In this document: one piece after another, positions 4,068 to 49,484 of the stretch | How the letters are laid out: the number at the start of each line of letters is the position of its first letter | Position numbering within the stretch: position 1 is the stretch's first letter | The notes under the pieces: generated by a model | Database searches by the model: none | Told to the model about the DNA's origin: nothing | The model's input: only the letters and a program-made list of their open reading frames with translations | Made by a program: the position numbers and the translations under genes | NCBI GenBank assembly: GCA_003157015.1 | Contig: PMIJ01000092.1 | Location: forward strand, 6,731 to 70,730 | Reading direction: 5' to 3' | Origin: Bacteroidales bacterium | Lineage (GTDB): Bacteria > Bacteroidota > Bacteroidia > Bacteroidales > VadinHA17 | Length of the DNA: 64,000 nt

Positions 4068-4128
4068 ACCTTTAAAAAAATGCCTCATTATGATTACATA
4101 ATGAGGCTTATTTTCATAGAACCGGGTC

Positions 4129-17786: not shown

Positions 17787-17863
17787 AGATAATCAAATCT
17801 GAAAAAACAAGAAACTCAATTTCCAGGTTGGACATTAAGATGCTTTTTTTAACGGGGAGGAAA

Positions 17864-30318: not shown

Positions 30319-33171
30319 ATGATGAAAAGGTTAGTTCTCTTAACGTGGCTTCTTGCTGCATTTATCAATTCTGATTTATTTTCTCAGTCCAAAGGAGATC
30401 TGAGAGATAATTTTTATGATGCCGAAAGCTGGATTTTGTTTGAAGCTTACCAGGATGCATTGCCTTTATATCTGCAATTATTGAGAAATTACCCGGATAA
30501 TGCAAATTTCCAATACCGTGTCGGCCAATGCTACATAAACATTCCGGGAGAAAAAGTTAAAGCTGTCAGTTACCTTGAATCCGCAGTTAAAAATATTGAT
30601 CCGAAATACAAAGAGGGAAAATTCAATGAAACGGGAGCTCCTTATGATGCTCTCTACTATCTTGCCAATGCTTACCGGATAAATAATCAGATAGATAAGG
30701 CTCTCAGAGCTTATGAGCTTTTCAAAAAAAACCTCAACCCTGAAGTTTATGATTCAACAATTGTAAATCTTCAGATCCAATCGTGCCATAACGCTAAGGA
30801 ACTTATGAAAATGCCTCTCTTTATCAAGGAGAAAAACCTCGGTAGCGTCATCAATAGCAGCAACAATGATTTTAACCCCGTAGTGTCTGATAAAGAGGAT
30901 CTTCTCGTCTTTTCAAGAAGTCAGGCATTTTATGATGCAGTTATGTATTCAACAAAGATAAACGGAGCATGGACCGAACCAAAAAATATGAATGAATTGC
31001 TGAAAGTTGACCGCGATCTTTTTCCAACATCCATATCTAAAGACGGGAAGGATCTTTACCTGTACAGCTCAGCAGATTATGACGGAATTATTTATACTTC
31101 AAGATTTGAGAACGGAACTTGGTCACCTCTTGTAAAACTAAATGATAACATCAATACTAAATATTGGGAATCACATGCAACGATCTCACACGACAATAAA
31201 AAACTCTATTTCACCAGTAACAGAAAAGGAACATATGGTGGTCTAGATATATATGTATCGAACCGTGACAGCACGAGCGACTGGGGGCCAGCAGTAAACA
31301 TGGGTCCTGTCATAAATACTCCATATAATGAAGAAACTCCTTTTCTTAGTGATGATGACAAAACCCTGTTTTTCAGCTCAAGAGGTCATTTCAACATGGG
31401 AGGTTATGACATTTTCTATTCTACCCTCCTTGATAACGGGGAATGGTCCGTTCCTCTCAATGTAGGTTACCCACTGAACACGACCGACGATGATATCTTC
31501 TTTAAGCCTCTGAATCAAGGTTATGAAGGATATATGGCAAAAGAATTGCCTGGGGGGTACGGCAAGCAGGACATTTACAGGATCGAGATTTTCTCCAATG
31601 ACCATCCCAGAAAATTCTTTGTGAGAGGTATGGTAAAAGTGGCTGACCTTATAAGCAGTATGACTGACAGCGTGAAGGTAAGCGCTATGAACATTAAAAA
31701 TCCGAATCAGACAATAATTGTCTATTCGAATCCTAAAACAGGAGAATATGAATTTCAGCTTCCTCAGGGAGATTATGAGATTACTTACGAAGGTGATGGA
31801 GGTGAGAAAGTTGTCAGAAAAATTGATTTGCCTCTTACAAACCCATCCGACAGTTTTGTACTTCCGGGAACTATACTGCCAAAAACAGATTTTGTTGCAG
31901 ATTTAAAAGTTGAAACAAATAAAACAATTTCAGTTACAAAGGGCGACTCGATCCTTTTTCCGATGAAAGTTGAACCTAAATCTTTCCTGACAATTGAACA
32001 CTGGGTAGGCGATTCCCTTGTATCAGTTGAACACTACACAATGCTCGATTCAACTTTTAACTATAAAATGGCGCCAAGCCGTGGGAAAAACAGAGTTGTC
32101 TTTAAACTGACGGACAGGTTTAATAATACTACCACAACTGAGGTTCTAATCACAAGGGACAAAACAATAACAACTCAGCCTGTAATAAGTCCTGAATATA
32201 GCAGAGTCATATCACAAAATCAGATAAGCTCGCTTGCCGCCATGTTGAAGAACAGGGCCAGGGATAGTCTTTTAAAGGTTGTTACAAATGCAAATATCGA
32301 AAATAAAGAATTCGGAAAAGTCGACGAATATATCTCATATCTGAAGGAAGAGGCCGGTAAAAACAACCTCAACCCTGAAGAGGTGGATATGCTGGCTCTA
32401 AAGGTAGCCGTTATGGATAATATCCTTACTCAGGCCGCTGTTGATTTATTGGCAAAACATACCGATGGCGATCTGAAAAAGCTTCTCTCAGATATTGATA
32501 TCTATAAGCTCAATCTCAAGACCTGGACCGATTTACAGGAGTACATTAATGCAAAAACAAGTGGTAGAATAAGCCCTGAGTACCTGAATAGAATTGCTGC
32601 AGCAATCTTGGGTGAAACAGATCCTGCTATTGCAGATTTAAGAAATAAAATCCTTACATTCAGTGAAAAATCTATTTACGGAGACCTCATTCGGCAGACG
32701 GTTACAGCTGTCGATAACAGCAACATAAAAGTTAAGGAAAAATGGTTGCAGGCATTTTACGAGGAAGGTATTAAACATGGGCTTACCAGGAGTCAGATAT
32801 CAGAATTACTTGTGATGATTAGCTCGGTGCCAGGTATCAAAGTTGAACAATACCTCAACGATCTTGTCGAACATTCAGAAGAACCCTTGGCATCAGCTCT
32901 GAAATCAATTGATTTGAGAAAAGAAGGAATTAAAACACCTGAGGATCTTATATTATATCTTTTCACACATAAAGAAAAATATCCTGAAGAAGCTGTATCA
33001 AAAAGTATCGCAAATCTTATAGCTGCGAAAGATATTTCTGCAGATAAAATTAAAGCACAAACTACGCCTGCAAGGAACAGCAATCTTTGGATTTTATGGA
33101 TCGTGCTTGGAGCTGGTATTCTGAGTTTATTCATAATCTTTTGGCGACGAAACAGGAATCAGAAAAAATAG
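30319..33171 (+). CDS. PorE-family-like envelope protein A: signal peptide, TPR, TolB/PD40-type propeller, CRD-like sandwich, about 300 aa helical region, C-terminal TM helix
   Basis: It shares motifs with the next three genes (CYINIPGEK, INTKYWESH, LYFTSNRKGTYGGLDIYVS, SSRGHFNMGGYDIF). The extreme C-terminus NLWILWIVLGAGILSLFIIFWRRNRNQKK is a TM helix plus a basic tail. Confidence 0.55.
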   Translation: MMKRLVLLTWLLAAFINSDLFSQSKGDLRDNFYDAESWILFEAYQDALPLYLQLLRNYPDNANFQYRVGQCYINIPGEKVKAVSYLESAVKNIDPKYKEGKFNETGAPYDALYYLANAYRINNQIDKALRAYELFKKNLNPEVYDSTIVNLQIQSCHNAKELMKMPLFIKEKNLGSVINSSNNDFNPVVSDKEDLLVFSRSQAFYDAVMYSTKINGAWTEPKNMNELLKVDRDLFPTSISKDGKDLYLYSSADYDGIIYTSRFENGTWSPLVKLNDNINTKYWESHATISHDNKKLYFTSNRKGTYGGLDIYVSNRDSTSDWGPAVNMGPVINTPYNEETPFLSDDDKTLFFSSRGHFNMGGYDIFYSTLLDNGEWSVPLNVGYPLNTTDDDIFFKPLNQGYEGYMAKELPGGYGKQDIYRIEIFSNDHPRKFFVRGMVKVADLISSMTDSVKVSAMNIKNPNQTIIVYSNPKTGEYEFQLPQGDYEITYEGDGGEKVVRKIDLPLTNPSDSFVLPGTILPKTDFVADLKVETNKTISVTKGDSILFPMKVEPKSFLTIEHWVGDSLVSVEHYTMLDSTFNYKMAPSRGKNRVVFKLTDRFNNTTTTEVLITRDKTITTQPVISPEYSRVISQNQISSLAAMLKNRARDSLLKVVTNANIENKEFGKVDEYISYLKEEAGKNNLNPEEVDMLALKVAVMDNILTQAAVDLLAKHTDGDLKKLLSDIDIYKLNLKTWTDLQEYINAKTSGRISPEYLNRIAAAILGETDPAIADLRNKILTFSEKSIYGDLIRQTVTAVDNSNIKVKEKWLQAFYEEGIKHGLTRSQISELLVMISSVPGIKVEQYLNDLVEHSEEPLASALKSIDLRKEGIKTPEDLILYLFTHKEKYPEEAVSKSIANLIAAKDISADKIKAQTTPARNSNLWILWIVLGAGILSLFIIFWRRNRNQKK

Positions 33172-33179
33172 GAACGCGA

Positions 33180-33207
33180 AATATGACCGGTAAAAGCCGG
33201 TCATATT
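33180..33207 (+). terminator. Perfect 11-bp hairpin between PorE-like genes A and B (terminator/attenuator candidate)
   Basis: AATATGACCGG-TAAAAG-CCGGTCATATT starts 9 nt after the stop of gene A. Confidence 0.45.
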
Positions 33208-33251
33208 CATAAAATAATATATCATTAACAGTTCTTTTGCTATTTTTTTAA

Positions 33252-33259
33252 TAAATTTG
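33252..33259 (+). promoter_or_regulatory. Bacteroidetes-type -7 box upstream of PorE-like gene B
   Basis: TAAATTTG lies 19 nt upstream of ATG 33279, downstream of the 33180-33207 hairpin. Confidence 0.3.
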
Positions 33260-33278
33260 TTTACCAAAATCTTTGTCT

Positions 33279-34553
33279 ATGAGCAAAAGAGCAGTGTGTC
33301 TGTTATTTATATTACTTTTAATCGCCCCTGTTTATGCACAAGAGAACAAAGACCTTGAGGATTCATTCCTTGAAGCTGAATATTTCCTGATGAATGAATC
33401 TTATTCTGATGCTCTTACATATTATCTTCAACTTTATGAGAAACTGCCTGATAACGCAAATCTGGCCTATTGCGTCGGTGTTTGTTACCTCAATATTCCG
33501 GGGAAGAAAAATCTTTCAATTCAGTATCTTGAAAATGCAATAAAAAATATGTCTGCCAAACATAAGGAGGGAACTCTGACTCAGGTGGCAGCTTCATATG
33601 ATGCACTGTTTGAGCTTGGAAGAGCGTACCGCATAAATTACAGGTTTGACAAGGCTAAAGAGACATTCACTAAATATCTTGCCACCCTGCTTCCTGATGA
33701 TCATGAGAACATCGATTTTGTTCGAAACGAAATAAAGGCATGCGAGATGGCGAAAGACCTTATCGCGACGCCTGTGGCCTATGCTGAAGAAAATATGGGT
33801 GAACTCTTCAATGATGAAAAGTCAAACTTTAATCCTCTGATCTCGGCCGATGGAAAATCTTTTGCATATATGGTCTCTCTTAAATTCTATGATGCCGTAA
33901 TGTTTTCTCGACTGGTCAATGGAAGATGGAGCGCACCTGTCAATATTACTCCTGAACTTCAGTCTGATGGAGATTTTTATATTTCCTGTTTATCTGCAGA
34001 TGGTAAGCTGTTGTTTCTTTCTAAAGATGATCATGTTAACAGTGATATCTATGTGAGCTCATATGATGGAAAAACCTGGAGCAAGACTGTTAAACTTAAT
34101 AAAAACATTAACACAAAAGATTGGGAATCACATGGCTTTATATCTGAAGACGGGAATCAGCTTGTTTTTGCATCTGACAGACCCGGAGGTTTTGGAGGAC
34201 TCGATCTGTATATCTCACGTAAGGTAAACGGAGATTGGGGCCCCGCTGTGAACCTTGGACCGGAAATTAATACACAGTTCAATGAGGACAGGCCATATCT
34301 GATTAACAATGGAAAAACTCTCTTTTTCAGTTCTCAGGGACATGAAAATATGGGAGGATATGATATTTTTAGATCCGATCTGCAATCAAATGGCCTGTGG
34401 AGTATTCCTAAAAACCTTGGCTATCCGATTAACACTCCTGATGATGACATTTTCTTTATGCCAGTCGCAGATGGGAAATCAGGCTATTATTCTAAATTTA
34501 AAGAGACCGGAGGATTCGGGAAGGAAGATATTTATAAAGTCACATTCAAATAA
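33279..34553 (+). CDS. PorE-family-like envelope protein B: signal peptide, TPR and PD40 propeller only
   Basis: It is a paralogue of A, C and D (CYLNIPGKK, INTKDWESH, LVFASDRPGGFGGLDLYIS, SSQGHENMGGYDIF). The ATG at 33279 is preferred over the listed TTG at 33273. Confidence 0.55.
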   Translation: MSKRAVCLLFILLLIAPVYAQENKDLEDSFLEAEYFLMNESYSDALTYYLQLYEKLPDNANLAYCVGVCYLNIPGKKNLSIQYLENAIKNMSAKHKEGTLTQVAASYDALFELGRAYRINYRFDKAKETFTKYLATLLPDDHENIDFVRNEIKACEMAKDLIATPVAYAEENMGELFNDEKSNFNPLISADGKSFAYMVSLKFYDAVMFSRLVNGRWSAPVNITPELQSDGDFYISCLSADGKLLFLSKDDHVNSDIYVSSYDGKTWSKTVKLNKNINTKDWESHGFISEDGNQLVFASDRPGGFGGLDLYISRKVNGDWGPAVNLGPEINTQFNEDRPYLINNGKTLFFSSQGHENMGGYDIFRSDLQSNGLWSIPKNLGYPINTPDDDIFFMPVADGKSGYYSKFKETGGFGKEDIYKVTFK

Positions 34554-34605
34554 AATTACATTTTCACTAGTTTAAACGTCTAGAAAAATTACTATATTTG
34601 TTTTG

Positions 34606-36558
34606 ATGGTAAATCTTCGAATAAAGATCATAAGCATTATACTGCTATTACTGACGCTGGTCGTTCTTCCCACAGCCGTTTCAGCTCAGTCTCAAAGCGA
34701 GATGAAAAAGATATTTGCAAAGGCAGAGTCATACTATCTTTTTGAAGAATATGAACTTGCAAATCAGCTTTACCTGCTCCTTGATACTACCAACAATCTC
34801 AATATTAAATATAAAATCGGCAACTGCTATCTTAATATACCGGGCGAAAAGGAAAAATCGATTCCTTATCTTGAAGCTGCCGTTAAGACTTCCAGCTATG
34901 ATTCAAAAACTCTTACATTTAAAGAGTTAAGAGCTCCGCTCGATGCTTATTTTTCGCTTGCTAAAGCTTATCTTGTTAATAATCAACTTGAAAAAGCATT
35001 GAGCACTCTCGAAACCTTCAGCAAGCTTGCCAGGGAAACAAAAGCCAAAGGAGGCATGACAAACCTCGATTATATTGATCAGCAGATACAGGCTTGTAAA
35101 AATGCTATTCAGTACAAAGCCAATCCTGTGACCTTCAGTAAAAAAACAATGGGAAATGATTTTAATCAGGGTGCTATAAATGATAACCCGGCTGTAAGCT
35201 TTGACGGGAACACAATTGTATATACTGAACGCAGGGGTGTTGTGAACGCGATCTTCTATTCAAAAAAGGAAAGGGGAAAATGGCAGACACCCATAGAAAT
35301 AACCGCTCAGCTTAATGCAGGAGAAGATTGCTCTTCATCTTCCCTTAACAGCGATGGTACTGAACTTTTTTTATATAAAACTGATAATTACGACGGTAAT
35401 ATATATTCCTCAAATTTTCTAAACGGGGCATGGACTCCTATTAAAAAACTTAATAAGAATATAAATACCAAGTTTTATGAATCACACGCCTCTATTTCAG
35501 CAGACGGAAAAAAACTATATTTTACAAGCAACAGGGATGGAGGCCAGGGCAACCTCGATATTTATGTTTCTGAAAAAGACGCCAGCGGCGAATGGGGCCC
35601 TGCAGTAAACATGGGAGCAGCTATCAATACTCCATTTAATGAGGATACTCCATTTATAACACAAAATGACTCTGTGTTATACTTTAGCTCTGAAGGCCAC
35701 AGTTCAATGGGTGGATATGATATTTTCAAAAGTCAGAAAATAGGAAATGTATGGAAAACACCAACCAACGTTGGGTTTCCTATAAATACCACAGATGACG
35801 ATAAGTTTTTCCAGCCTGTAAATAACGGCAAGAATGCTTATTATTCGATGACAACTGATTATAAAAAGAAAGATATATTCTATCTGGGAATGGGGAGCAC
35901 TGATGTAAACCAGGTGTTTGAAATCAAAGGTAAGTTCAGTCTTAAAGATACTGTGGTAAACTTTGATGAGAATTATTCAGTTCATCTTATAAACAGGACT
36001 TCAGGAGATACCCTCGATGTAGGATTCCCGAATAAATATACAGGCTTGTACAGCTTTAATGTTTCTCCCGGACAATTTAAAATTTTTTATAAGGGTTATG
36101 GTTATATAACACAAAAGATTGATACTACAATTTTACAGGATAATCCGAATCTGGCATTAAATATTGACGTTTCTCTTGAGAGAGATACTTCTATAAAGAA
36201 AATCAGCCTGCCACTCACAGTTTATGAAAAGATTAACCTCGCGCTGATACCTACGGTTTCTTCGGTTGATACCAGCACTTTGATCAGAAACCTGAATGTT
36301 AGTGACGTCGGCGATATTAATATTAAAGACTCTGATATCTTATACTATACTGTTCAGGTTATGGCGCTCCATAATCCTGTTGATGTAACATATTTTAAAT
36401 ACATTACTGATATGAAAGTATTGTATAATGATCTGGATAAGTTCTACCGTTATACAACCGGTAGATTCTCAACAAGAGAAGATGCATATTCTTCAAGGCT
36501 GGAGTTGATAAGGAAAGGATATCCTGAAGAAATCTTTATTAAGAAAGTATCAAAATAA
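34606..36558 (+). CDS. PorE-family-like envelope protein C: signal peptide, TPR, PD40 propeller, CRD-like domain, C-terminal SPOR domain
   Basis: It is a paralogue (CYLNIPGEK, INTKFYESH, LYFTSNRDGGQGNLDIYVS, SSEGHSSMGGYDIF). The C-terminal YYTVQVMALHNP...YRYTTGRFSTREDAYSSRLELIRKGYPEEIFI is SPOR-like. The ATG at 34606 is preferred over the TTG at 34603. Confidence 0.55.
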   Translation: MVNLRIKIISIILLLLTLVVLPTAVSAQSQSEMKKIFAKAESYYLFEEYELANQLYLLLDTTNNLNIKYKIGNCYLNIPGEKEKSIPYLEAAVKTSSYDSKTLTFKELRAPLDAYFSLAKAYLVNNQLEKALSTLETFSKLARETKAKGGMTNLDYIDQQIQACKNAIQYKANPVTFSKKTMGNDFNQGAINDNPAVSFDGNTIVYTERRGVVNAIFYSKKERGKWQTPIEITAQLNAGEDCSSSSLNSDGTELFLYKTDNYDGNIYSSNFLNGAWTPIKKLNKNINTKFYESHASISADGKKLYFTSNRDGGQGNLDIYVSEKDASGEWGPAVNMGAAINTPFNEDTPFITQNDSVLYFSSEGHSSMGGYDIFKSQKIGNVWKTPTNVGFPINTTDDDKFFQPVNNGKNAYYSMTTDYKKKDIFYLGMGSTDVNQVFEIKGKFSLKDTVVNFDENYSVHLINRTSGDTLDVGFPNKYTGLYSFNVSPGQFKIFYKGYGYITQKIDTTILQDNPNLALNIDVSLERDTSIKKISLPLTVYEKINLALIPTVSSVDTSTLIRNLNVSDVGDINIKDSDILYYTVQVMALHNPVDVTYFKYITDMKVLYNDLDKFYRYTTGRFSTREDAYSSRLELIRKGYPEEIFIKKVSK

Positions 36559-39221
36559 TGAGAACTGCATTCAGGAAGACAGTCATACTTTCTCTTCTAC
36601 TTTTTTACTTCCTGCCCCTCTTTTCGCAAGTACTCTCTAAAAAGGGATTAATCAAAGCCGTTCACGACGCTGATATTTATTATTACTATGATCAGAACTT
36701 TGAAAAGGCATTTCTTCTCTATGAATCTTTGCTTAAAATTTATCCCGATAATTCCAACTTTTGTGCAAAATTGGGAATATGCTGTTTAAACCTTGACGGG
36801 AAAAAACCCGAAGCCCTGAGGCTCCTGTCAATAGCATCACAAAATGTTGTAAAAAATGACAAGGAGTATCTTGAATACGGGGAAAAAGCACCTTTGGATA
36901 CCTATCTTTACCTTGCTGAAGCCTTTCATCAGAATGACAGCCTCCAAAAAGCCATAGTCCTGTATACAGATGCAAAAAGAAGACTTTCACTGACTGAAAT
37001 ATTCCGAAATGAATATATTGACAATCAAATAAGAAACTGCAGGTACGCTATTGAGATACAAAAGAAGCCACTGACAATCCAAACCAGCCTCTTTGCAACA
37101 TGGCTTAGTGATTACCCCGGAGCCAGCAATCCGGTACTCTCTAGAAATGATTCTGTATTTATTTTTACTCAGATAATAAATGAGAAAACCCGGATAATGT
37201 GTTCTTATAAATCAGGTTCATGGAAAAAACCTGTGGATATTACCAAACAACTCGGAGGCTATGACAGGTATTATTCAAATTCAATCACCGGGGATGGTAA
37301 GTTGTTAATAATTTATATGGATGAAGGTGGTGACGGAAACCTGTTTTACAGTCAGCGAAAGGATAGTACCTGGTCAAAAATACGGAGTCTTGGCAAAGAA
37401 ATCAACACAATCTACTGGGAAGCTCATGGTTTTATTACACCCGATGGAAAGACATTGTATTTTGCCAGTAACAGACCGGGAGGTTACGGGGAACTCGATA
37501 TATGGGTTTCCGAAAAAACTGATAATGGTTTCTGGAAGCATCCGGTGAATTGTGGTCCTGTCATTAATACACCCTATAACGATAACACGCCTTTTTTTGA
37601 TCCATCATCCAATACGCTTACATTTAGCTCTGTGGGCCATCTAGGTATGGGAGGATATGATGTATTCAGGTCAGTTAAGAGAAATGGCACCTGGACCGAG
37701 CCTATCGGTTTACCCTATTCCTTTAATACTACTCTGGATAATACATTTTTTATCCGAAGTAATTCAACTACAGGATATATTACCAGCCTTTTCAATGAAA
37801 AAGACAACTCCCGTAATATCTATTCAATCTCGGAGAAGGAAAATGCCGACAAAACTATTTCTGCAAACGGGTTGGTTTCTCTTCAGGATGGGATGCCTGT
37901 CGATCCGGTTCAAATGCGCATCCAGCTTTTTGATCAGAAAACCGGATCTCTTCTTAAGAATATATCGGTTAATGATTCAGCCTCATTCAGGTATGAGATG
38001 AAGCCTGGCAAATTTAAGATCCTGATAAGCAGAATCAGTAAAAAGAAAACCGATACAATTAACGTGAATGTAAATGTAAAGAAGGAACAAAAAGAAGAAA
38101 ATCAGACACAACAGCGATCGCTGTCTGATACGGCTTCATTTAAATTTGAAATAAAACCAGGGGACTATCAATTGTTCGTAAACCACATCGGATATAAAAC
38201 AGATACAATAAACCTCAGTATTCCTTCAACGAACTCAGGCAATTATATCGCTCTCAACTCCTCACTGGTACCAGATAAAGTATCCAGGGGAGAATTCCTT
38301 ACAATTAAAAATCTGTTGTTTGATTTTGACAGCTATAAGTTAACCAGTGAGTCAATATCAACATTGGAAATTCTAAAATCCATACTCATCCGTTACCCGC
38401 AGTTAAAAATCGAAGTTGCCGGATATACCGATTCAAAAGGCACCGATGAATATAACAGAAAACTCGCCTATAACAGGGTACAGGAAGTGATCAACTACCT
38501 TACCAGGTCAGGAATTGTGTCTTCCCGATTTACAACGAAAGCATTCGGGAAATCAGAATTCGAGGCTCTGAATACTAATCCCGACGGTTCTGATAATCCC
38601 GAAGGAAGAAGGTATAACAGGAGAGTGGCATTCGGGATCGTTGATCCTAAAACCGGCATTGTTATTCATCAGGAGACGTTTATCCCTGAATATCTCAGGC
38701 AGCCATTCTCGATGAAATACAGCATAGTTCTGATAAAGACCTCTCATGCTCTTGCTCCCGACTATTTCAGGGCTCTGAAGATGAATGAAATGTATTTTAT
38801 CAGACCGGTAAAGAAAGACTCTGTTTCATTTTATATCCTTAGTCTGTTTTACAACAGGAATGACGCATTACAGTATCTTGTTTATGCTAAAGAGAATGGG
38901 TTTAAGGATGCCTACGTGGTAAACCAATATGAAATTAATGCTTCAGCGGATTCGTTGTACAAAAACGAACCAATTAGCGGAGAGAATGCAGCTGAAAAGA
39001 TCTACACAATCCAGCTTAAAGCTTCAAAAGTACAACTAAGTATGAATCAATTCAAAGGGGTTGAAGGAGTAAGTGAAATATACTCTAATGACGGTTATTA
39101 CCGTTACGTACACGGAAACTTCAGCTCATTTTCAAAAGCTAAAGCCGAACTCATTCGAATGCAGGATTCAGGATTCACAAATGCATTTATAAGAGACCTT
39201 AATTCGATTACTGATAAATAG
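36558..39221 (+). CDS. PorE-like protein D: signal peptide, TPR, PD40 propeller, two CRD-like domains, OmpA_C peptidoglycan-binding domain, two SPOR-like domains
   Basis: The OmpA_C core is LLFDFDSYKL...IEVAGYTDSKGTDEYNRKLAYNRV...NRRVAFGIV (about 38290-38650). SPOR-like segments are YSIVLIKTSH... and YTIQLKASKV...YRYVHGNFSSFSKAKAEL. It shares a TAATG start/stop overlap with gene C. There is no lipobox Cys. Confidence 0.6.
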   Translation: MRTAFRKTVILSLLLFYFLPLFSQVLSKKGLIKAVHDADIYYYYDQNFEKAFLLYESLLKIYPDNSNFCAKLGICCLNLDGKKPEALRLLSIASQNVVKNDKEYLEYGEKAPLDTYLYLAEAFHQNDSLQKAIVLYTDAKRRLSLTEIFRNEYIDNQIRNCRYAIEIQKKPLTIQTSLFATWLSDYPGASNPVLSRNDSVFIFTQIINEKTRIMCSYKSGSWKKPVDITKQLGGYDRYYSNSITGDGKLLIIYMDEGGDGNLFYSQRKDSTWSKIRSLGKEINTIYWEAHGFITPDGKTLYFASNRPGGYGELDIWVSEKTDNGFWKHPVNCGPVINTPYNDNTPFFDPSSNTLTFSSVGHLGMGGYDVFRSVKRNGTWTEPIGLPYSFNTTLDNTFFIRSNSTTGYITSLFNEKDNSRNIYSISEKENADKTISANGLVSLQDGMPVDPVQMRIQLFDQKTGSLLKNISVNDSASFRYEMKPGKFKILISRISKKKTDTINVNVNVKKEQKEENQTQQRSLSDTASFKFEIKPGDYQLFVNHIGYKTDTINLSIPSTNSGNYIALNSSLVPDKVSRGEFLTIKNLLFDFDSYKLTSESISTLEILKSILIRYPQLKIEVAGYTDSKGTDEYNRKLAYNRVQEVINYLTRSGIVSSRFTTKAFGKSEFEALNTNPDGSDNPEGRRYNRRVAFGIVDPKTGIVIHQETFIPEYLRQPFSMKYSIVLIKTSHALAPDYFRALKMNEMYFIRPVKKDSVSFYILSLFYNRNDALQYLVYAKENGFKDAYVVNQYEINASADSLYKNEPISGENAAEKIYTIQLKASKVQLSMNQFKGVEGVSEIYSNDGYYRYVHGNFSSFSKAKAELIRMQDSGFTNAFIRDLNSITDK

Positions 39222-39241: not shown

Positions 39242-39769
39242 ATGAAATATAAAAATATTATACTCAGGGCCCTTGAGCCCGAGGATCTGGAACTTCTTTA
39301 CAAATGGGAGAATGATGATAACTACTGGTTAATTAGTAATACATCCTCCCCTTTTTCAAAATATACACTCAAGCGGTATATTGAGAATTCTCATAAGAGC
39401 ATTTATGAAACAGGGCAGCTGCGTTTCATGATCGAACTTATTGAGGACAAAATTGCAATCGGAACAATAGATATTTTTGAGTTTGATTCATTTCACAAAA
39501 GAGCCGGAATCGGGATTCTCATTGCCAATGAAGCATATAGAAGAAAGGGGTATGGCTTTATGTCTCTGACTTGTTTAATAAAGTACTGTTTTGAAACCCT
39601 CCAGCTTCATCAGTTGTACTGTAATATCCTTTCAAATAATAAAGAAAGCTTAGATTTATTTAAAAAGATGGGGTTTACAGAGTCGGGGATTAAAAAAGAC
39701 TGGGTACTTACCTCAAGTGGATATATAGATGAGCTTATGTTACAGCTAATTAGCGAAGAACAAGAATAA
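39242..39769 (+). CDS. GNAT-family N-acetyltransferase (RimJ/RimL-like)
   Basis: It is 175 aa with an acetyl-CoA binding-like RRKGYGF motif. It starts 20 nt after gene D. Confidence 0.75.
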   Translation: MKYKNIILRALEPEDLELLYKWENDDNYWLISNTSSPFSKYTLKRYIENSHKSIYETGQLRFMIELIEDKIAIGTIDIFEFDSFHKRAGIGILIANEAYRRKGYGFMSLTCLIKYCFETLQLHQLYCNILSNNKESLDLFKKMGFTESGIKKDWVLTSSGYIDELMLQLISEEQE

Positions 39770-39777
39770 TTTTATTT

Positions 39778-39807
39778 GTAGAGACAGGTCTCAGACCTGT
39801 CTCTACA
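39778..39807. terminator. Perfect 13-bp hairpin between the convergent GNAT and rlmN genes (bidirectional terminator candidate)
   Basis: GTAGAGACAGGTC-TCA-GACCTGTCTCTAC. The right arm overlaps the rlmN stop codon. Confidence 0.6.
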
Positions 39808-40828
39808 GTTTTAATCCTGATGCAAGAAGCCCGCAGGCTGCTGATATATCTGTTCCGCGCGATTTTCTTATCGAAGCAGAGATTCCTGAAACAATAAGAT
39901 TATGTTTGAAAAAATGCATCCTTTCGGCTGAAGAGGAGCACTTTTTGTCATTCCTATCCGGATGATACGAAAGCAGATTAACCCTTATTTGTGAACCCTG
40001 CAGAATTGAGATGAGTCCTTTAAGATGATTATCAGTGTCATTTATATCTTTTATCATAATATATGCCACGCTTAATCTCCTCCCTTTTTTAATGCGGAAA
40101 TTCTTCATGGTGTCAATAATCCCTTGAACCGGGTATTGAGTTTCAGCCGGCACAATTTCTCTTCTTTCTTCAGGGAACGGAGAGTAGAGACTTAAAGTAA
40201 GATTGCAATCAGATCTCTTCAAGAATTGATCTACAGCGGGAATTATACCCACCGTTGAAACAGTTACATTTCTTGAACTGATAGCAATTCCCCATTCGGC
40301 TGTGATTATTTTGCAGGCTTTAATAACGTTTTCAAGGTTATCCATCGGCTCACCCATACCCATAAATACCACATGAGTGACCTTGTCTGCATCTGGAAGG
40401 GCTATTATCTGATTCACAATCTCCCCTGCAGTAAGATTTCCACGGAAGCCATACCTGCCTGTAACGCAGAATGAACATCCCATTCTGCAACCCGATTGAG
40501 TTGAAACGCAGACCGTATTTCTCTTATCATCGGGGATATAAATCGTTTCGAACTCTTTCCCGTCTTCTGTCCTGAACAGGTATTTAACAGATTCATCTGC
40601 TGAAACTTCAAGATTCAGAGGAAAATAGATTCCACTTGAAGCAAATTCAACAAGCTTTTCTTTTAGCTTGAGCGGGATCTTCTGAAACTCATGAATGTCG
40701 GAAATGCTCTTTTTATATATACTGTTTGATATTGAAACTGCATGAAGGTATAAGTAACCCATGGGTTCAATAAGATCATAGATTTCATCTGCAGTCAGAC
40801 CACAAAGGCCAGTCTTAATCATAATCAC
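39803..40828 (-). CDS. rlmN: Radical SAM 23S rRNA/tRNA adenine-C2 methyltransferase, RlmN/Cfr family
   Basis: It has the CRMGCSFC radical-SAM cluster, an upstream conserved Cys (TVCVSTQSGC) and C-terminal RKSRGTDISAACGLL. I cannot separate RlmN from Cfr-like by eye. Confidence 0.7.
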   Translation of the reverse strand: MIMIKTGLCGLTADEIYDLIEPMGYLYLHAVSISNSIYKKSISDIHEFQKIPLKLKEKLVEFASSGIYFPLNLEVSADESVKYLFRTEDGKEFETIYIPDDKRNTVCVSTQSGCRMGCSFCVTGRYGFRGNLTAGEIVNQIIALPDADKVTHVVFMGMGEPMDNLENVIKACKIITAEWGIAISSRNVTVSTVGIIPAVDQFLKRSDCNLTLSLYSPFPEERREIVPAETQYPVQGIIDTMKNFRIKKGRRLSVAYIMIKDINDTDNHLKGLISILQGSQIRVNLLSYHPDRNDKKCSSSAERMHFFKHNLIVSGISASIRKSRGTDISAACGLLASGLKL

Positions 40829-46734: not shown

Positions 46735-47574
46735 CTAGTTAAAAACTGCAATCTGACCATTCTTTGGAATAGCCCTGTAAATAATCTTTGCATCGGTACG
46801 TGGCAATCTGATTTTTATAAATGGGTGATATTCAGGAATTTTAAATACAGCAACTCTTTTTAGTGCACTCCATGTATCTCTAAGCCTATCCTGCAGATCG
46901 AAACTTAGTTGGTTGATCCTGTCACTGAATTTCATGTTCTCTTCCTGGTAGACATAGATTCTTATTCCCCTGTTCATTTCGAGAATATAATTAACCGGTT
47001 CAGTAATAGATGTATCGGGCATAACATCAGGTTTATATTCAGATGTATCTTTAGGTGCCATTTTGATCATTACCGGGTCCTTCTTTATTGTAGCATATGC
47101 ATGTAAAATGGTAAAAGGAGTTGAGAGCATTGACAGTATTGCATTATCGTTGTCAGTCCGCAAAATCTTACTGCTCTTAAAACCTCTTATCTTTGATTTA
47201 TAAACGACTACACCGCTTATTTCAATATTGGTGGTGCTGTCTTCCAGGTTAATAATAAGGTAAATTGAATCTGATTCAGCCATCAGTATCCTTGATTGAA
47301 GAAATGCCTTTTCTTTCAAAAACTTAAGATAAGATGAATCATTCACTACTTGCCTGTCAACACCGTTTTTATCATTGACCTTAGCACCGAATTCCTTTTT
47401 TATCTCTTCCATTTTCCTGACAGGAGAGAGCATTGACATTATGGAATAATAGATAATGAAGACTGATAGAATACTTATCAGCACTCTGAAAGTGATTTTT
47501 CCAAAATGCCGTATTTTACTGTCTTTGGTTTCCATTTTATCTGGCAGATCAGTAAATATATACTTTTGAACCAA
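46735..47574 (-). CDS. Membrane-anchored, Cys-less paralogue of the adjacent L,D-transpeptidase (putative pseudoenzyme)
   Basis: It has an N-terminal TM helix. SIYLIINLED...KIRGFKSS and PFIKIRLPRTDAKIIY align to LDT2 SYIVINTTEN...LIREGFCSS and THGCVRLNDDDLKVIY. The protein contains no cysteine. An alternative start is ATG 47535. Confidence 0.5.
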   Translation of the reverse strand: MVQKYIFTDLPDKMETKDSKIRHFGKITFRVLISILSVFIIYYSIMSMLSPVRKMEEIKKEFGAKVNDKNGVDRQVVNDSSYLKFLKEKAFLQSRILMAESDSIYLIINLEDSTTNIEISGVVVYKSKIRGFKSSKILRTDNDNAILSMLSTPFTILHAYATIKKDPVMIKMAPKDTSEYKPDVMPDTSITEPVNYILEMNRGIRIYVYQEENMKFSDRINQLSFDLQDRLRDTWSALKRVAVFKIPEYHPFIKIRLPRTDAKIIYRAIPKNGQIAVFN

Positions 47575-48385
47575 TATTTAGTGTATTGTAGATCACCTTC
47601 AGATCATCATCGTTCAACCTCACACAACCATGTGTAACCGGCATACCAAGAAAACGCTTATAAATAGTTCCATGTATCATGTATCCGTCTCCCAAAATAA
47701 GAGCATAATCTCCTAAAACACCATATTCAAAACGCGAATCAGCATTTGCAGAGGGTATCGGTGAACCTTCTTCCACGAATGACCAGTCGGGTCGTTTCCA
47801 TACGGGATTGGTTATTTTTCCATGGACCCAGTATTTTCCTTTGGGCGTTTTGAAGATCCACTTTTTATTTCCGGCTGTCTGAAGCATTGTGTAGCTTCCT
47901 GAACTGCAGAAGCCTTCTCTTATCAGCTTTTTGTTAGTATATAGGGCGAACCTGTTTTCAGTGGTGTTTATGACAATATATGATTGTCCCGATGTGTAGG
48001 CATTAAATCTCAACGAAAGACGCTGTATATCTTTAGTCAGAAGGCCCATCTGCTTTTTATAAATAAGATCCCTTTTCAATTCCTGATTAATTGCAGACTC
48101 TGTTTTATGTTGGAGTGAAATTTCCTCAAGAACCGGAACCATATACAGAATAAAAAGAACCAGGGCGAGAGTTACCAGAACTGTGCAAATGAATATAAGC
48201 AATGAACGTAAAATAATGAAGAGAGGCTTCTTTGAAATATCTTTTTTTTCAACACCGCTTTCAGTCTGGACAGGAATTTCATTTTTACTTTTATTGGCTT
48301 CTGTTGCCGGATATCCATTCTCAGACTCAGTACTGTTTTTTACTATCTCCTCGTCTTCCATATCAGATAATTTACTTGTCCACAA
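47549..48385 (-). CDS. L,D-transpeptidase (YkuD domain), membrane anchored
   Basis: The catalytic motif is IHGT...THGCVRL (Cys codon at 47624-47626). It has an N-terminal acidic segment plus a TM helix. Confidence 0.8.
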   Translation of the reverse strand: MWTSKLSDMEDEEIVKNSTESENGYPATEANKSKNEIPVQTESGVEKKDISKKPLFIILRSLLIFICTVLVTLALVLFILYMVPVLEEISLQHKTESAINQELKRDLIYKKQMGLLTKDIQRLSLRFNAYTSGQSYIVINTTENRFALYTNKKLIREGFCSSGSYTMLQTAGNKKWIFKTPKGKYWVHGKITNPVWKRPDWSFVEEGSPIPSANADSRFEYGVLGDYALILGDGYMIHGTIYKRFLGMPVTHGCVRLNDDDLKVIYNTLNIGSKVYIY

Positions 48386-49484
48386 TATCTTTCAATTCGA
48401 CCATTGATCCAATGATTGTAACAGGAGTACCTACCTTTGCAATCTTAAAAACAACATCCATCTCTCTATCAGTAAGAGCGATACATCCTTCAGTCCAGTC
48501 TATGCCTTTACCTCCGTTTCCATGAATTTCAATCAATCCGCCAATTTTAGCCGATACAGGAAGAGATCCATGTTCAATTTCAGATCTGAATTTTGCTCTG
48601 TCTTCTTCATTGGGATAATCGAGTAACAGCGCTTTGTAATATTTGGTTTTACCTCCGTCAAATTTTTGGGATATTTTATACATTCCTTCAGGAGTCGCCT
48701 TATCCCCTCTTTCTCTCTTGTCCCCGACCCAGTTTTTTCCTAATTCCGCTTCAAATTCATATTTTCTGACACCTTCAAGATAAATAAAACATTTTCGTGA
48801 AAATTTATCAATAATTATTGAATAATCGCGATTTTTTCTGGATTCATTTACAGTCTTATCAGCCCATTTTTTCCAGACAGAATATGATTTGAAATAATTT
48901 TTCAGATTTGATGATGCATTTTCGTAGGATTCTGTGAGAAGATACTCTGAATCAGTCAGTTTCCTGTTCGCTTGTAAATACTGTCCCTTATCATAGATTA
49001 TCTCGGCCTCATTTAATAATACCTTTCCTTTTGAAATGCGGTTCCGTATTTCAGAAGTTAACGGATAAGTGGTGAAAAGGTCATCAATCTGAGATACCAG
49101 AACATCAAGTGAGTCAATCTTTTGTTTCAGTATTATTTTAAGGTTCGATGAACTGGCTATTGAATTATCAGCGGCAAGGCTTGCTTTTTTGGCTGACAGA
49201 TCAGCAAACATTACAACCTTATCATAATGCCTGAAATAGATAAATCTATTGTTTTCTTTCTTCCAGTTTACCATTGCTGAATCATAAAAGATCTTTGCCT
49301 CGGTAAATAGCTTTTTTGAATATGTATCTGCTTTGTTAGTTCCTGCCTTAGAAAGAATTTCCCTGGCACGTTCCATTTCACCTGAAGGTGGCTTAGGTGT
49401 AAAACGGACCAATAATAAGATTACTAACGGTATAGAAACTGCAATAGCAGAAAAAATCAGCACATCTCTCCAACTCTTTCTCAT
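48372..49484 (-). CDS. L,D-transpeptidase (YkuD domain) with an N-terminal helical DUF4398-like module
   Basis: It has the catalytic IEIHGNGG...TEGCIAL motif and an N-terminal TM helix. The helical region shares YDKGQYLQANRK with the upstream lipoprotein (YDKGSYMDAQNK). Confidence 0.75.
   Translation of the reverse strand: MRKSWRDVLIFSAIAVSIPLVILLLVRFTPKPPSGEMERAREILSKAGTNKADTYSKKLFTEAKIFYDSAMVNWKKENNRFIYFRHYDKVVMFADLSAKKASLAADNSIASSSNLKIILKQKIDSLDVLVSQIDDLFTTYPLTSEIRNRISKGKVLLNEAEIIYDKGQYLQANRKLTDSEYLLTESYENASSNLKNYFKSYSVWKKWADKTVNESRKNRDYSIIIDKFSRKCFIYLEGVRKYEFEAELGKNWVGDKRERGDKATPEGMYKISQKFDGGKTKYYKALLLDYPNEEDRAKFRSEIEHGSLPVSAKIGGLIEIHGNGGKGIDWTEGCIALTDREMDVVFKIAKVGTPVTIIGSMVELKDIVDK

What the first reader, a model, noticed from the sequence alone, without database searches (positions are those of the whole stretch)
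30319..39221. Tandem array of four PorE-like (TPR plus PD40 propeller) paralogues with swapped envelope anchors
Four consecutive same-strand genes encode paralogues built on one N-terminal chassis. The gaps between them are 107, 52 and -1 nt, and the last pair shares TAATG.

The shared chassis is:
- a cleavable signal peptide with no lipobox Cys;
- a TPR region with a shared C(Y/C)(I/L)N(I/L)(P/D)G(E/K)K motif;
- a TolB/PD40-type propeller with shared strings INTK.(W/Y)ESH, LYF(T/A)SNR.GG.G.LDI(Y/W)VS, WGPAVN(M/L)G..INT and SS.GH..MGGYD(I/V)F.

The C-termini differ:
- A has a CRD-like sandwich, about 300 aa of helical sequence and a single TM helix at the extreme C-terminus.
- B has nothing further.
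- C has a CRD-like domain plus SPOR.
- D has two CRD-like domains, OmpA_C and two SPOR-like domains.

TPR plus propeller plus CRD plus OmpA_C is the published architecture of PorE (P. gingivalis PG1058), the peptidoglycan anchor of the T9SS. The same window also carries gldJ, porP-like, porU and porV. Unlike PorE, none of the four is a lipoprotein.

To my knowledge, one chassis carrying alternative anchors (inner membrane, denuded/septal glycan via SPOR, peptidoglycan via OmpA) in a single operon-like array has not been described. It suggests a multi-subunit envelope-spanning tether, or a division-site-associated variant of the T9SS anchor.
Basis: partly seen in the sequence, partly recalled or inferred. 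Interest (0 to 1): 0.8.

Follow-up and report, generated by a model that had tools for sequence, protein, structure and literature searches.

The report
Envelope-anchor variants of a PorE-like protein
Four neighbouring genes in an uncultured Bacteroidales genome encode copies of one periplasmic PorE/TolB-like protein, ending respectively in an inner-membrane anchor, nothing, a division-site cell-wall binder, or a general cell-wall binder plus division-site binders; this conserved but unstudied set may tie the cell-envelope layers together.

Summary
A (30319-33171), B (33279-34553), C (34606-36558) and D (36558-39221) share a signal peptide, a TPR region and a TolB-like PD40 propeller.

Their C-termini differ:
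- A: CRD, a second beta-sandwich, about four ~65-aa helical repeats with no known fold match, and a C-terminal TM helix.
- B: nothing further.
- C: CRD and SPOR.
- D: two CRDs, OmpA_C with PorE's peptidoglycan-binding D/N/R residues, a degenerate SPOR and a SPOR.

All four score far below the curated PorE and CHU_0125 family cut-offs. None is a lipoprotein. No porP-like gene lies nearby, so the T9SS link rests on distant homology only.

The array is old and conserved. A-led arrays occur in at least 129 species-level MAGs and in more distant Bacteroidota, with changing gene order and number. A GNAT gene almost always follows directly. A is followed by a conserved terminator-like hairpin, and C/D overlap in 44 of 50 loci.

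Best reading, by inference: a set of periplasmic adaptors linking a common partner to inner membrane, sacculus and septal glycan. This would be Tol-Pal-like in function, and fits a 2025 proposal for PorE. I rate it a new variant of a known kind, of moderate to high interest, and untested.

The parts
30319..33171 (+). Gene A, 950 aa: signal peptide, TPR, PD40 propeller, CRD-like sandwich, second sandwich, helical repeats, C-terminal TM anchor
   Evidence: ORF; Pfam PD40 64 bits; AF2 model, pLDDT 74.5; more than 120 full-length orthologue clusters at >=70% identity
30388..30807 (+). A residues 24-163: TPR-like helical region with the shared CYINIPGEK motif and the invariant Cys71/Cys156
   Evidence: Helices in the AF2 model; sub-threshold TPR Pfam hits; invariant columns
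30820..31593 (+). A residues 168-425: TolB-like PD40 beta-propeller
   Evidence: Pfam PD40. In Foldseek, TolB structures (7mx5, 3iax, 2ivz, 1crz) are the compact matches: rmsd 4.2-5.9 over 200-245 columns, E 8e-6 to 5e-5
31612..31860 (+). A residues 432-514: CRD-like beta-sandwich (low model confidence)
   Evidence: Cross-hits between the A, C and D CRD profiles, E 7e-8 to 9e-8; strands in the AF2 model
31897..32157 (+). A residues 527-613: second beta-sandwich, no family assigned
   Evidence: AF2 strands, pLDDT about 85; no Pfam hit; recurs in A-type relatives as 'beta2'
32215..33060 (+). A residues 633-914: all-helical region built of ~65-aa repeat units; no known fold or family match
   Evidence: AF2 of residues 616-950: pLDDT 88.3, pTM 0.74. 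Foldseek against PDB: best E 0.95. No Pfam or PDB sequence match. The unit recurs up to 9 times in relatives
33079..33150 (+). A residues 921-944: single TM helix, followed by the basic tail RRNRNQKK (stop-transfer inner-membrane anchor)
   Evidence: Hydropathy 2.62; helix 923-949 in AF2. 86 of 150 superfamily representatives end the same way, with a median 10-aa tail that is 54% K/R and no conserved motif before the helix
33180..33207 (+). Hairpin just after the A stop codon (AATATGACCGG / CCGGTCATATT); terminator-like in orthologous loci
   Evidence: Sequence. In 72 loci the mean MFE is -13.4 against -6.6 for shuffles, and 42 have MFE <= -10. Stems vary with both arms changed, and some are followed by T-runs
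33279..34553 (+). Gene B, 424 aa: signal peptide, TPR and propeller only
   Evidence: ORF; PD40 57 bits; orthologues in 68 loci
34606..36558 (+). Gene C, 650 aa: chassis, CRD, ~50-aa linker, SPOR
   Evidence: ORF; PD40 72 bits; C-terminal analysis
35911..36180 (+). C residues 436-525: CRD-like sandwich
   Evidence: 12/51 orthologues hit Pfam CarboxypepD_reg; cross-hit with the A CRD profile
36331..36555 (+). C residues 576-650: SPOR domain (YYTVQVMAL...FYRYTTGRF...)
   Evidence: 19/51 orthologues hit Pfam SPOR, best E 1.7e-4; hhalign to D SPOR2 97%, E 2.8e-11
36558..39221 (+). Gene D, 887 aa: chassis, two CRD-like domains, OmpA_C, a degenerate SPOR and a SPOR. Its start overlaps the C stop codon (TAATG)
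   Evidence: ORF; Pfam. The C/D overlap is -1 or -4 nt in 44 of 50 loci
37860..38276 (+). D residues 435-573: two CRD-like sandwiches. The first is an insertion specific to the window's close relatives
   Evidence: Alignment A4: most D orthologues lack columns 50-100. CRD Pfam hits in 33/49 orthologues, best E 5.9e-9
38280..38648 (+). D residues 575-697: OmpA_C peptidoglycan-binding domain with the D, N, R triad
   Evidence: Pfam OmpA 56-58 bits. Aligns to PorE structure 6TOP, E 8e-16, with ytD/eyN/ynR opposite haD/ayN/drR. These residues are invariant in 49 orthologues
38703..38942 (+). D residues 716-795: degenerate SPOR-like domain (YSIVLIKT..., lacks the beta1 Gln)
   Evidence: hhalign to SPOR2 97%, E 1.3e-10
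38994..39215 (+). D residues 813-886: SPOR domain (YTIQLKAS...YYRYVHGNF...)
   Evidence: Pfam SPOR 17 bits in the window protein (cut-off 21); 44/49 orthologues hit, best E 1.9e-9
39242..39769 (+). GNAT (Acetyltransf_3) gene 20 nt after D; conserved directly downstream of such arrays. No signal peptide by inspection of the N-terminus
   Evidence: NCBIfam hits are below cut-off, PseH-like 64 bits against 93. It follows the array in 61 loci and in distant contexts L085/86, L087/88, L090, L092 and the P0207 locus. It is 54% identical to the L086 copy
39776..39808 (.). 15-bp GC-rich hairpin between the convergent GNAT and rlmN genes; probable end of the transcription unit
   Evidence: Terminator scan

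Best explanation
The four genes are anciently duplicated members of a distinct clade of the PorE/CHU_0125 superfamily. All four are Sec-exported periplasmic proteins with a TPR region and a TolB-like propeller.

Each copy attaches the same head to a different envelope layer:
- A stands on the inner membrane. It has a C-terminal stop-transfer helix, below a stalk of two beta-sandwiches and a variable number of ~65-aa helical repeats.
- D binds the sacculus through OmpA_C, and denuded (septal) glycan through SPOR.
- C binds denuded glycan through SPOR only.
- B is free in the periplasm.

Most likely the heads bind one another or a shared partner. By analogy with the PorE propeller binding PorP, that partner would be the periplasmic face of an outer-membrane protein. 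The set would then tie inner membrane, peptidoglycan and outer membrane together, and concentrate at division sites. That is the job Tol-Pal does in Proteobacteria; tol-pal loci were reported as not identifiable in Bacteroidetes (PMC12204202).

Shown: the domain architectures, topology signals, age of the duplication, conservation and tight gene linkage.

Inferred: complex formation, the partner, septal localisation and the physiological role.
For: **Architecture and anchors**.
- D keeps PorE's peptidoglycan-binding D/N/R residues (PMC12773672).
- C and D SPOR2 keep the beta1 Gln of functional SPOR domains (sequence; importance from my own knowledge of FtsN/DamX work).

**Linkage.**
- The C stop and D start overlap in 44/50 loci.
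- The B-C spacer is 50-54 nt in 50 of 65 loci.
- D to GNAT is a median 18 nt.
- There is no terminator-like site between B and the GNAT, and a strong one lies after it.

**Old and maintained.**
- Each paralogue is 50-90% identical to its orthologue but only 28-47% to its neighbours.
- At least 129 species genomes carry an A relative.

**Recurrence in different settings.** Where found, A-type genes sit in tandem with OmpA-type chassis genes. The order varies (A-B-C-D, B-A-OmpA, A-OmpA-B-OmpA/SPOR, A-OmpA, A-OmpA-OmpA-B-X) and so do the flanks. A-type chassis from different lineages cluster together in a neighbour-joining tree.

**Stalk length varies.** The helical unit occurs from none to 9 detectable copies, and proteins range from 546 to 1489 aa among the representatives. 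Orthologues of up to 1630 aa exist. This fits a spacer.

**Published context.**
- The PorE propeller probably binds the outer-membrane barrel PorP (PMC12773672).
- PorE has been proposed as a fused CpoB-TolB-Pal, a 'compact Tol-Pal' that may traffic to the septum (PMC12204202, section 10).
Against: - There is no direct evidence that the four proteins interact or share a partner.
- No outer-membrane anchor is present: no lipobox and no barrel. The link to the outer membrane is pure analogy.
- A's TM helix is C-terminal with a ~8-aa tail. It lacks any motor-coupling feature of TolA/TonB, so energy transduction is not supported.
- The whole neighbourhood (SSS, recR, E2 ... GNAT, rlmN) is syntenic in this lineage, so conserved gene order there could be inheritance alone.
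- Array composition is fluid. ABC without D occurs in 13 loci, AB only in 2, and one distant array (L085/86) has no A-type gene. That argues against a fixed stoichiometric machine.
- A is separated from B by a terminator-like hairpin.
- All carriers found are uncultured MAGs.
Confidence: 0.4

Rival explanations
1. These are T9SS accessory anchors. On this view they are PorE paralogues, each pairing with a PorP/SprF-like outer-membrane protein. They would fix T9SS components or type-B cargo to the wall, the septum or the inner membrane.
For: - Both the PorE and CHU_0125 models hit all four proteins.
- D has the full PorE domain order with the peptidoglycan-binding residues.
- The genome has T9SS genes: gldJ, a porP-family gene, porU and porV.
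- PorE-like/PorP-like pairs are proposed to anchor non-mobile type-B cargo (PMC9143113).
- Gliding bacteria have several non-lipoprotein PorE homologues (PMC12773672).
Against: - Scores are 121-170 bits against a PorE cut-off of 600. Even OmpA-only relatives of this chassis score 171-228 for PorE.
- None of the four is a lipoprotein.
- No PorP/PorU/PorV homologue lies within 10 kb of the array in 83 loci.
- In the window the T9SS genes are 19-25 kb away, behind hutU, alaS, recR and others.
- OmpA_C is reported as conserved in almost all PorE homologues and is essential for PorE function (PMC12773672), yet A, B and C lack it.
Confidence: 0.25
2. The four are independent tandem duplicates with separate jobs. 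They would be neighbours only because they arose by duplication and the region is syntenic. No joint complex exists.
For: - The whole 15-kb neighbourhood is conserved, including unrelated housekeeping genes.
- Members are gained and lost freely: ABC, AB, ACDD, ABCDD.
- The superfamily is very large and modular: 9128 clusters at E <= 1e-30, with every kind of C-terminus.
- A is followed by its own terminator-like hairpin.
Against: - C/D stop-start overlap is kept in 44/50 loci.
- A-type plus OmpA-type tandems recur with different gene orders and different flanks.
- The paralogues have stayed adjacent although they are only 28-47% identical, so they are old.
Confidence: 0.25
3. The C-terminus of A is a sorting signal for an exosortase-, rhombosortase- or sortase-like enzyme rather than a permanent membrane anchor. 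A would then be processed and released or attached elsewhere.
For: - The C-terminal layout (TM helix plus basic tail) resembles such signals.
- JGI labelled some orthologues 'LPXTG-motif cell wall-anchored protein'.
Against: - No conserved motif precedes the helix in 86 A-type representatives.
- Among 10 close orthologues, the only invariant residues in or next to the helix are W924, W927 and G931.
- No sortase-like gene lies in the cluster.
Confidence: 0.05

Closest known systems
PorE (PG1058/PGN_1296) of Porphyromonas gingivalis, NCBIfam NF052230
   Same: - TPR, beta-propeller, CRD, OmpA_C domain order (D only).
- OmpA_C similar to structure 6TOP (E 8e-16), with the D/N/R peptidoglycan-binding residues.
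- Periplasmic location.
   Different: - Far below the family cut-off (121-170 bits against 600).
- Not lipoproteins.
- A, B and C lack OmpA_C.
- SPOR domains, the helical repeats and the TM anchor are absent from PorE.
- No porP-like neighbour.
CHU_0125 family (Cytophaga hutchinsonii 'Pal-like' outer-membrane integrity protein), NCBIfam NF053607
   Same: - TPR, PD40, OmpA_C architecture.
- It is the best-scoring curated model for A, C and D; B scores marginally higher on PorE.
- An envelope-integrity role was shown by deletion (PMC5891637).
   Different: - 131-183 bits against a cut-off of 620.
- CHU_0125 is a single 656-aa protein without SPOR or a TM anchor.
Tol-Pal system (TolA, TolB, Pal, CpoB) of Proteobacteria
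   Same: - The set of folds matches: TPR (CpoB), PD40 propeller (TolB is the most compact structural match), OmpA_C (Pal), and an inner-membrane-anchored protein with a long helical periplasmic part (TolA-like in layout).
- Division-site targeting is plausible.
- PorE has been proposed as a compact Tol-Pal (PMC12204202).
   Different: - Not homologous as a system.
- TolB model scores are 13-32 bits against a cut-off of 343.
- No TolQR-like motor genes in the cluster.
- A is anchored by a C-terminal helix (opposite topology to TolA) with no cytoplasmic or motor-binding part.
- No lipoprotein.
SPOR-domain division proteins (FtsN, DamX, DedD, RlpA)
   Same: A C-terminal SPOR domain, which in those proteins binds denuded glycan strands at the septum.
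   Different: - Here SPOR is fused to a TPR-propeller head (C), or to OmpA_C (D).
- No paper with both 'SPOR domain' and 'PD40' was found in the searched library.

Membership tests
PorE family (NF052230) | Whole-protein score at or above the curated cut-off (600 bits) | tested here: not met
   A 120.7, B 150.1, C 122.8, D 169.7 bits
PorE family (NF052230) | Outer-membrane lipoprotein (lipobox Cys after the signal peptide) | tested here: not met
   No lipobox in any of the four; cleavage-type [S/A]|Q sites
PorE family (NF052230) | TPR + beta-propeller + CRD + OmpA_C in one chain | tested here: inconclusive
   Met by D only. A, B and C lack OmpA_C
PorE family (NF052230) | Peptidoglycan-binding residues in OmpA_C (D576, N584, R591 in PorE) | tested here: met
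   D aligns ytD...eyN...ynR opposite PorE haD...ayN...drR in 6TOP. Invariant in 49 orthologues
PorE family (NF052230) | Needed for T9SS secretion; binds PorP | not testable with these tools
   Only context could be checked: no PorP/PorU/PorV homologue within 10 kb in 83 loci
CHU_0125 family (NF053607) | Whole-protein score at or above the curated cut-off (620 bits) | tested here: not met
   A 168.3, B 149.1, C 130.5, D 182.9 bits. Ten OmpA-only relatives score 196-251
TolB (TIGR02800) | Score at or above 343 bits; N-terminal alpha/beta domain plus six-bladed propeller | tested here: not met
   13-32 bits. Only the propeller matches structurally; the N-terminal part is TPR
PD40 repeat (PF07676) | Score above the gathering threshold (20.9 bits) | tested here: met
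   63.9, 57.4, 72.1, 54.6 bits
OmpA_C-like (PF00691) | Score above the gathering threshold (27.2 bits) | tested here: met
   D 56.2-57.7 bits. Absent from A, B and C
SPOR (PF05036) | Score above the gathering threshold (21 bits) | tested here: inconclusive
   - Window D scores 15.5-17.1 bits; window C gives no hit.
- Orthologues of D reach E 1.9e-9 (44/49), and of C E 1.7e-4 (19/51).
- Profile-profile comparison links C to D SPOR2 (97%) and D SPOR1 to SPOR2 (97%).
SPOR (PF05036) | Binds denuded glycan; localises to the septum | not testable with these tools
   Needs sacculus binding and localisation experiments
CarboxypepD_reg (PF13620) | Score above the gathering threshold (32.3 bits) | tested here: inconclusive
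   Window D scores 18-20.5 bits. Orthologues of D reach E 5.9e-9 (33/49) and of C 2.6e-4 (12/51). A's sandwich cross-matches the C profile at E 9e-8

The most novel reading that the evidence does not exclude
The A-led array is a Bacteroidota counterpart of Tol-Pal. An inner-membrane-anchored TPR-propeller protein, whose helical-repeat stalk sets the reach across the periplasm, would work with SPOR-targeted and OmpA_C-anchored paralogues. Together they would hold and constrict the outer membrane at the division site without a TolQR-type motor. The helical repeat would be a new fold family. The conserved GNAT would be a functional partner.
Probability: 0.15. Interest if true: 0.85.

Novelty: new variant of a known kind. 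Interest (0 to 1): 0.55.

Why it matters
tol-pal loci were reported as not identifiable in Bacteroidetes, and what PorE actually does is disputed: T9SS part, or general outer-membrane tether (PMC12204202 against the T9SS literature).

This locus shows that the PorE-type head has been combined, in one conserved gene cluster, with three things:
- an inner-membrane anchor on a length-variable stalk;
- a general peptidoglycan binder;
- SPOR domains, the standard septal-glycan binders.

That is the kind of evidence the 'compact Tol-Pal with septal trafficking' idea lacked. It gives concrete proteins to localise and delete.

It also defines a large uncharacterised family. About 86 of the 150 best superfamily representatives end in the C-terminal TM helix. 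Its helical repeat has no match in Pfam or the PDB.

The main limit is that every carrier found is an uncultured MAG.

Tried and rejected
- **Sorting-signal reading of A's C-terminus.** No conserved motif precedes the TM helix in 86 relatives. Rejected in favour of a plain anchor.
- **EF-hand or annexin likeness of the helical repeats.** The only hits were recoverin by PDB profile (E 0.06), annexin VI by Foldseek (E 0.95, prob 0.08) and one JGI 'EF-hand' label. The loops do not fit the Ca-binding pattern. Not significant.
- **Structure search with full-length A.** It returned only propeller matches. That is why the helical part was modelled separately.
- **PDB profile search with the C-terminus of C.** Nothing found. 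SPOR had to be shown through orthologues and profile-profile comparison instead.
- **Sigma-70 promoter scan.** 30 sites against 31.8 expected.
- **Bacteroidetes -7 box TAnnTTTG.** 69 sites against 68 expected in the window. The copies at 33252 (before B) and 34593 (before C) are therefore only suggestive.
- **Search for a porP-like partner near the arrays.** None found.
- **Search for cultured carriers.** Two protein searches and two cluster look-ups gave only MAG names.
- **Supplementary tables of the PorE paper,** which list PorE homologues in model gliders, are not held.
- **Canonical lipoprotein PorE in the same genome.** Could not be tested.
- **Other chassis, OmpA_C or SPOR genes in the window.** None.


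Full report
**1. What is there**

The window holds four consecutive + strand ORFs at the coordinates given:
- A: 30319-33171, 950 aa
- B: 33279-34553, 424 aa
- C: 34606-36558, 650 aa
- D: 36558-39221, 887 aa

The spacers are 107 and 52 nt. The C stop and D start share one base, TAATG.

Each protein starts with a signal peptide ending [S/A]|Q, and none has a lipobox. The only other hydrophobic helix is at the C-terminus of A (residues 921-944), followed by RRNRNQKK.

**2. Domains**

*Shared head.*
- PD40 is above Pfam's threshold in all four. TPR hits are sub-threshold.
- An AlphaFold2 model of A (98-sequence alignment, mean pLDDT 74.5) gives a helical TPR-like region at 24-163 and a propeller at 168-425.
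- TolB structures are the most compact structural matches to that propeller (rmsd 4.2-5.9 over 200-245 columns).

*A.* After the propeller, the model gives:
- a low-confidence sandwich at 432-514;
- a confident second sandwich at 527-613;
- an all-helical region at 633-914;
- a TM helix at 923-949.

*D.*
- It has OmpA_C at 56 bits.
- That domain aligns to the PorE crystal structure 6TOP (E 8e-16). The three peptidoglycan-contact residues are in register: D, N, R with spacing 8 and 7 (residues named in PMC12773672).

*CRD and SPOR.* These are weak in the window proteins themselves, so I tested them on orthologues taken from 80 related genome loci.
- For D: OmpA in 49/49, SPOR in 44/49 (best 1.9e-9), CRD in 33/49 (best 5.9e-9).
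- For C: SPOR in 19/51 (best 1.7e-4), CRD in 12/51.
- Profile-profile comparison ties C's last 75 residues to D's last SPOR (97%, E 3e-11). It also ties D's first SPOR-like domain to its second (97%, E 1e-10).
- A's first sandwich cross-matches the CRD profiles of C and D.

Three details can be added:
- A has a second sandwich.
- D's first CRD is a recent insertion, present only in close relatives.
- D's first SPOR-like domain has lost the beta1 glutamine, which C and D SPOR2 keep.

**3. The C-terminal half of A is new**

Residues 431-950 match no Pfam family and no PDB sequence. The 616-950 part, which holds the helical region, was modelled alone with high confidence (pLDDT 88.3, pTM 0.74). 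It has no Foldseek match in the PDB better than E 0.95.

A profile of the helical region hits relatives several times in tandem. This defines a ~65-aa unit, roughly A residues 836-905, with from none to 9 detectable copies. The proteins range from 546 to 1489 aa among the representatives, and orthologues of up to 1630 aa exist.

The C-terminal helix plus a short K/R-rich tail (median 10 aa, 54% K/R) is found in 86 of the 150 best superfamily representatives. No conserved motif precedes it. I read it as a stop-transfer inner-membrane anchor, N-terminus out, and not as a sorting signal.

**4. Family placement**

NCBIfam's two curated models for this architecture hit all four proteins, but far below their cut-offs:
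- CHU_0125 family: 131-183 bits against 620.
- PorE family: 121-170 bits against 600.

Ten OmpA-only relatives of this chassis also fail both (171-251 bits).

A profile of the four heads finds 9128 clusters (50% identity level) at E <= 1e-30 among 1.84 billion representatives. I made a census of the best 150 with my own module profiles:
- 86 end in the C-terminal TM helix, and a dozen more have the A-type modules without a detectable helix;
- about 21 have OmpA plus SPOR;
- about 17 have OmpA only;
- about 6 have SPOR only;
- about 13 have no detected C-terminal module.

So the four genes belong to a separate, large and modular clade of the PorE/CHU_0125 superfamily. They are not PorE itself.

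**5. Conservation and gene linkage**

*Distribution.* A has more than 120 full-length orthologue clusters at >=70% identity, all from metagenomes or MAGs. A scan of one genome per species found relatives in 129 genomes. All are uncultured and nearly all are titled Bacteroidales, Bacteroidia or Bacteroidota, from fens, peat, soil and lake sediment.

*Composition.* Among the 80 loci fetched:
- about 50 carry A-B-C-D or a variant (ABCDD, ACDD);
- 13 carry A-B-C and then the next gene directly;
- 2 carry A-B only.

*Age.* Every paralogue is much closer to its orthologue (50-90%) than to its neighbours (28-47%). The duplications therefore predate this radiation.

*Caveat.* The whole neighbourhood (symporter, recR, aminotransferase, E2 acyltransferase, array, GNAT, rlmN) is syntenic. 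Conserved order inside this lineage proves little by itself.

*Stronger evidence from more distant relatives.* Their A orthologues are only 30-40% identical. Gene order and flanks differ there, but the theme persists:

| Locus | Array |
|---|---|
| L087/88 | B-type, A-type, OmpA-type, GNAT |
| L090 | A-type, OmpA, B-type, OmpA+SPOR, GNAT |
| L092 | A-type, OmpA, CRD-OmpA, B-type, fifth paralogue, GNAT |
| P0207 locus | A-type, OmpA, B-type, GNAT |
| L091 | A-type, OmpA, then a Mur-ligase-like gene |
| L085/86 | OmpA, 2xSPOR ORF, OmpA+4xSPOR, OmpA+2xSPOR, GNAT; no A-type gene |

In a neighbour-joining tree of the heads, A-type proteins from different lineages group together. The other types are mixed, which hints at gain and loss of C-terminal modules (indicative only).

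*Transcription signals.*
- C and D overlap by 1 or 4 nt in 44 of 50 loci.
- The B-C spacer is 50-54 nt in 50 of 65 loci.
- The GNAT gene starts a median 18 nt after D.
- A 15-bp hairpin follows the GNAT gene at 39776-39808. No terminator-like site lies between B and it.
- Directly after A, however, there is a hairpin at 33180-33207. It is conserved in position with changed stem sequences. In several orthologous loci it is followed by a T-run.

A may therefore be partly uncoupled from B-C-D-GNAT.

**6. What it most likely does**

*Shown.* One periplasmic head is offered in four versions: anchored to the inner membrane on a stalk of variable length, unanchored, bound to SPOR-type ligands, and bound to peptidoglycan generally as well as to SPOR ligands. 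The four are encoded in a tight, ancient cluster.

*Inferred.* The heads bind each other or one shared partner, and thereby connect envelope layers, with a bias to the division site.

The inference leans on two published points:
- PorE's propeller probably binds the outer-membrane barrel PorP, and its OmpA_C contacts are essential (PMC12773672).
- tol-pal loci are not identifiable in Bacteroidetes, and PorE looks like a fused CpoB-TolB-Pal that 'potentially undergoes septal trafficking' (PMC12204202, section 10).

The present array adds exactly the missing pieces of that picture: an inner-membrane-anchored member and explicit septal-glycan binders. I give this reading 0.4.

*Weaknesses.*
- No outer-membrane anchor.
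- No motor genes.
- A fluid gene complement.
- No interaction data.

**7. Rivals**

- *T9SS accessory anchors (0.25).* Supported only by distant homology and by the presence of T9SS genes elsewhere in the window. No porP-like gene is near any of the 83 arrays. In F. johnsoniae, by contrast, six porP-like genes sit beside porE-like genes (PMC9143113).
- *Independent duplicates with no joint function (0.25).* This fits the fluid composition and the synteny. It does not fit the conserved overlaps or the recurrence in other contexts.
- *C-terminal sorting signal on A (0.05).* No motif supports it.

**8. Novelty and verdict**

Already known:
- the PorE/CHU_0125 architecture;
- that gliding Bacteroidota have several non-lipoprotein PorE homologues;
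- the Tol-Pal analogy.

Not found in the searched literature or in any source annotation, where the names are only 'hypothetical', 'TPR repeat protein', 'PD40 domain-containing' and 'OmpA family':
- the inner-membrane-anchored A-type family with its helical repeat;
- the fusion of this head to SPOR domains;
- the conserved A-led array with its GNAT.

I rate it a new variant of a known kind, with interest 0.55. It is robust and bears on an open question. It is without functional evidence, and so far it is confined to uncultured organisms.

Noticed in passing
window 39242-39769 (+); also L086 16252-16791, L087 6710-7249, L090 10824-11369, L092 19489-20025: A GNAT (Acetyltransf_3) gene with no signal peptide by inspection sits 12-36 nt after, or slightly overlapping, the last chassis gene. 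This holds in 61 close loci and in at least three differently flanked distant loci. The L086 copy is 54% identical to the window's. It may belong to the unit; its substrate is unknown (best NCBIfam hit PseH-like, below cut-off).
   Followed up: partly
window 33180-33207 (+): An 11-bp hairpin lies right after the stop codon of A. It is conserved in position across orthologous loci, with both arms changed together, and is followed by a T-run in some. This suggests termination or attenuation between A and B.
   Followed up: partly
window 33252-33259 and 34593-34600 (+): Bacteroidetes-type -7 boxes (TAAATTTG, TATATTTG) lie just upstream of B and C. The motif is not enriched in the window as a whole (69 found, 68 expected), so these are only leads for internal promoters.
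   Followed up: no
window 32215-33060 (+); relatives P0123, P0138, P0166, P0086, P0002, P0320: The helical part of A is built of a ~65-aa unit whose copy number varies from none to 9 detectable copies between relatives. Some close relatives in the same locus are 1130-1630 aa long. It looks like a length-variable periplasmic stalk.
   Followed up: partly
window 30529-30531 and 30784-30786 (Cys71, Cys156 of A) and the equivalent codons in B, C and D: Two cysteines in the TPR region are invariant in all four paralogues. Cys71 is invariant and Cys156 nearly so across 22 distant A-type proteins. This may be a periplasmic disulfide.
   Followed up: no
L086 9508-10008 (+): A 166-aa ORF made of two SPOR-like domains sits between two chassis genes of a distant array and overlaps the next gene by 8 nt. 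It could be a free SPOR protein, or a detached C-terminus of the upstream OmpA-type gene.
   Followed up: no
They are 19-25 kb from the array, with housekeeping genes in between.
   Followed up: yes
window 2775-4151 (-), 16806-18835 (-), 46735-49484 (-); L091 14875-16194; L085 4130-5596: Peptidoglycan-related genes are frequent around these arrays. In the window: murF, two M23 peptidases and three ORFs, two of which carry YkuD (L,D-transpeptidase) domains in the identical locus L001. In relatives: a Mur-ligase-like gene directly after one array and an S13 carboxypeptidase before another. Suggestive only.
   Followed up: no
window 39776-39808: A perfect 15-bp GC-rich hairpin lies between the convergent GNAT and rlmN genes. 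It is a likely bidirectional terminator.
   Followed up: no
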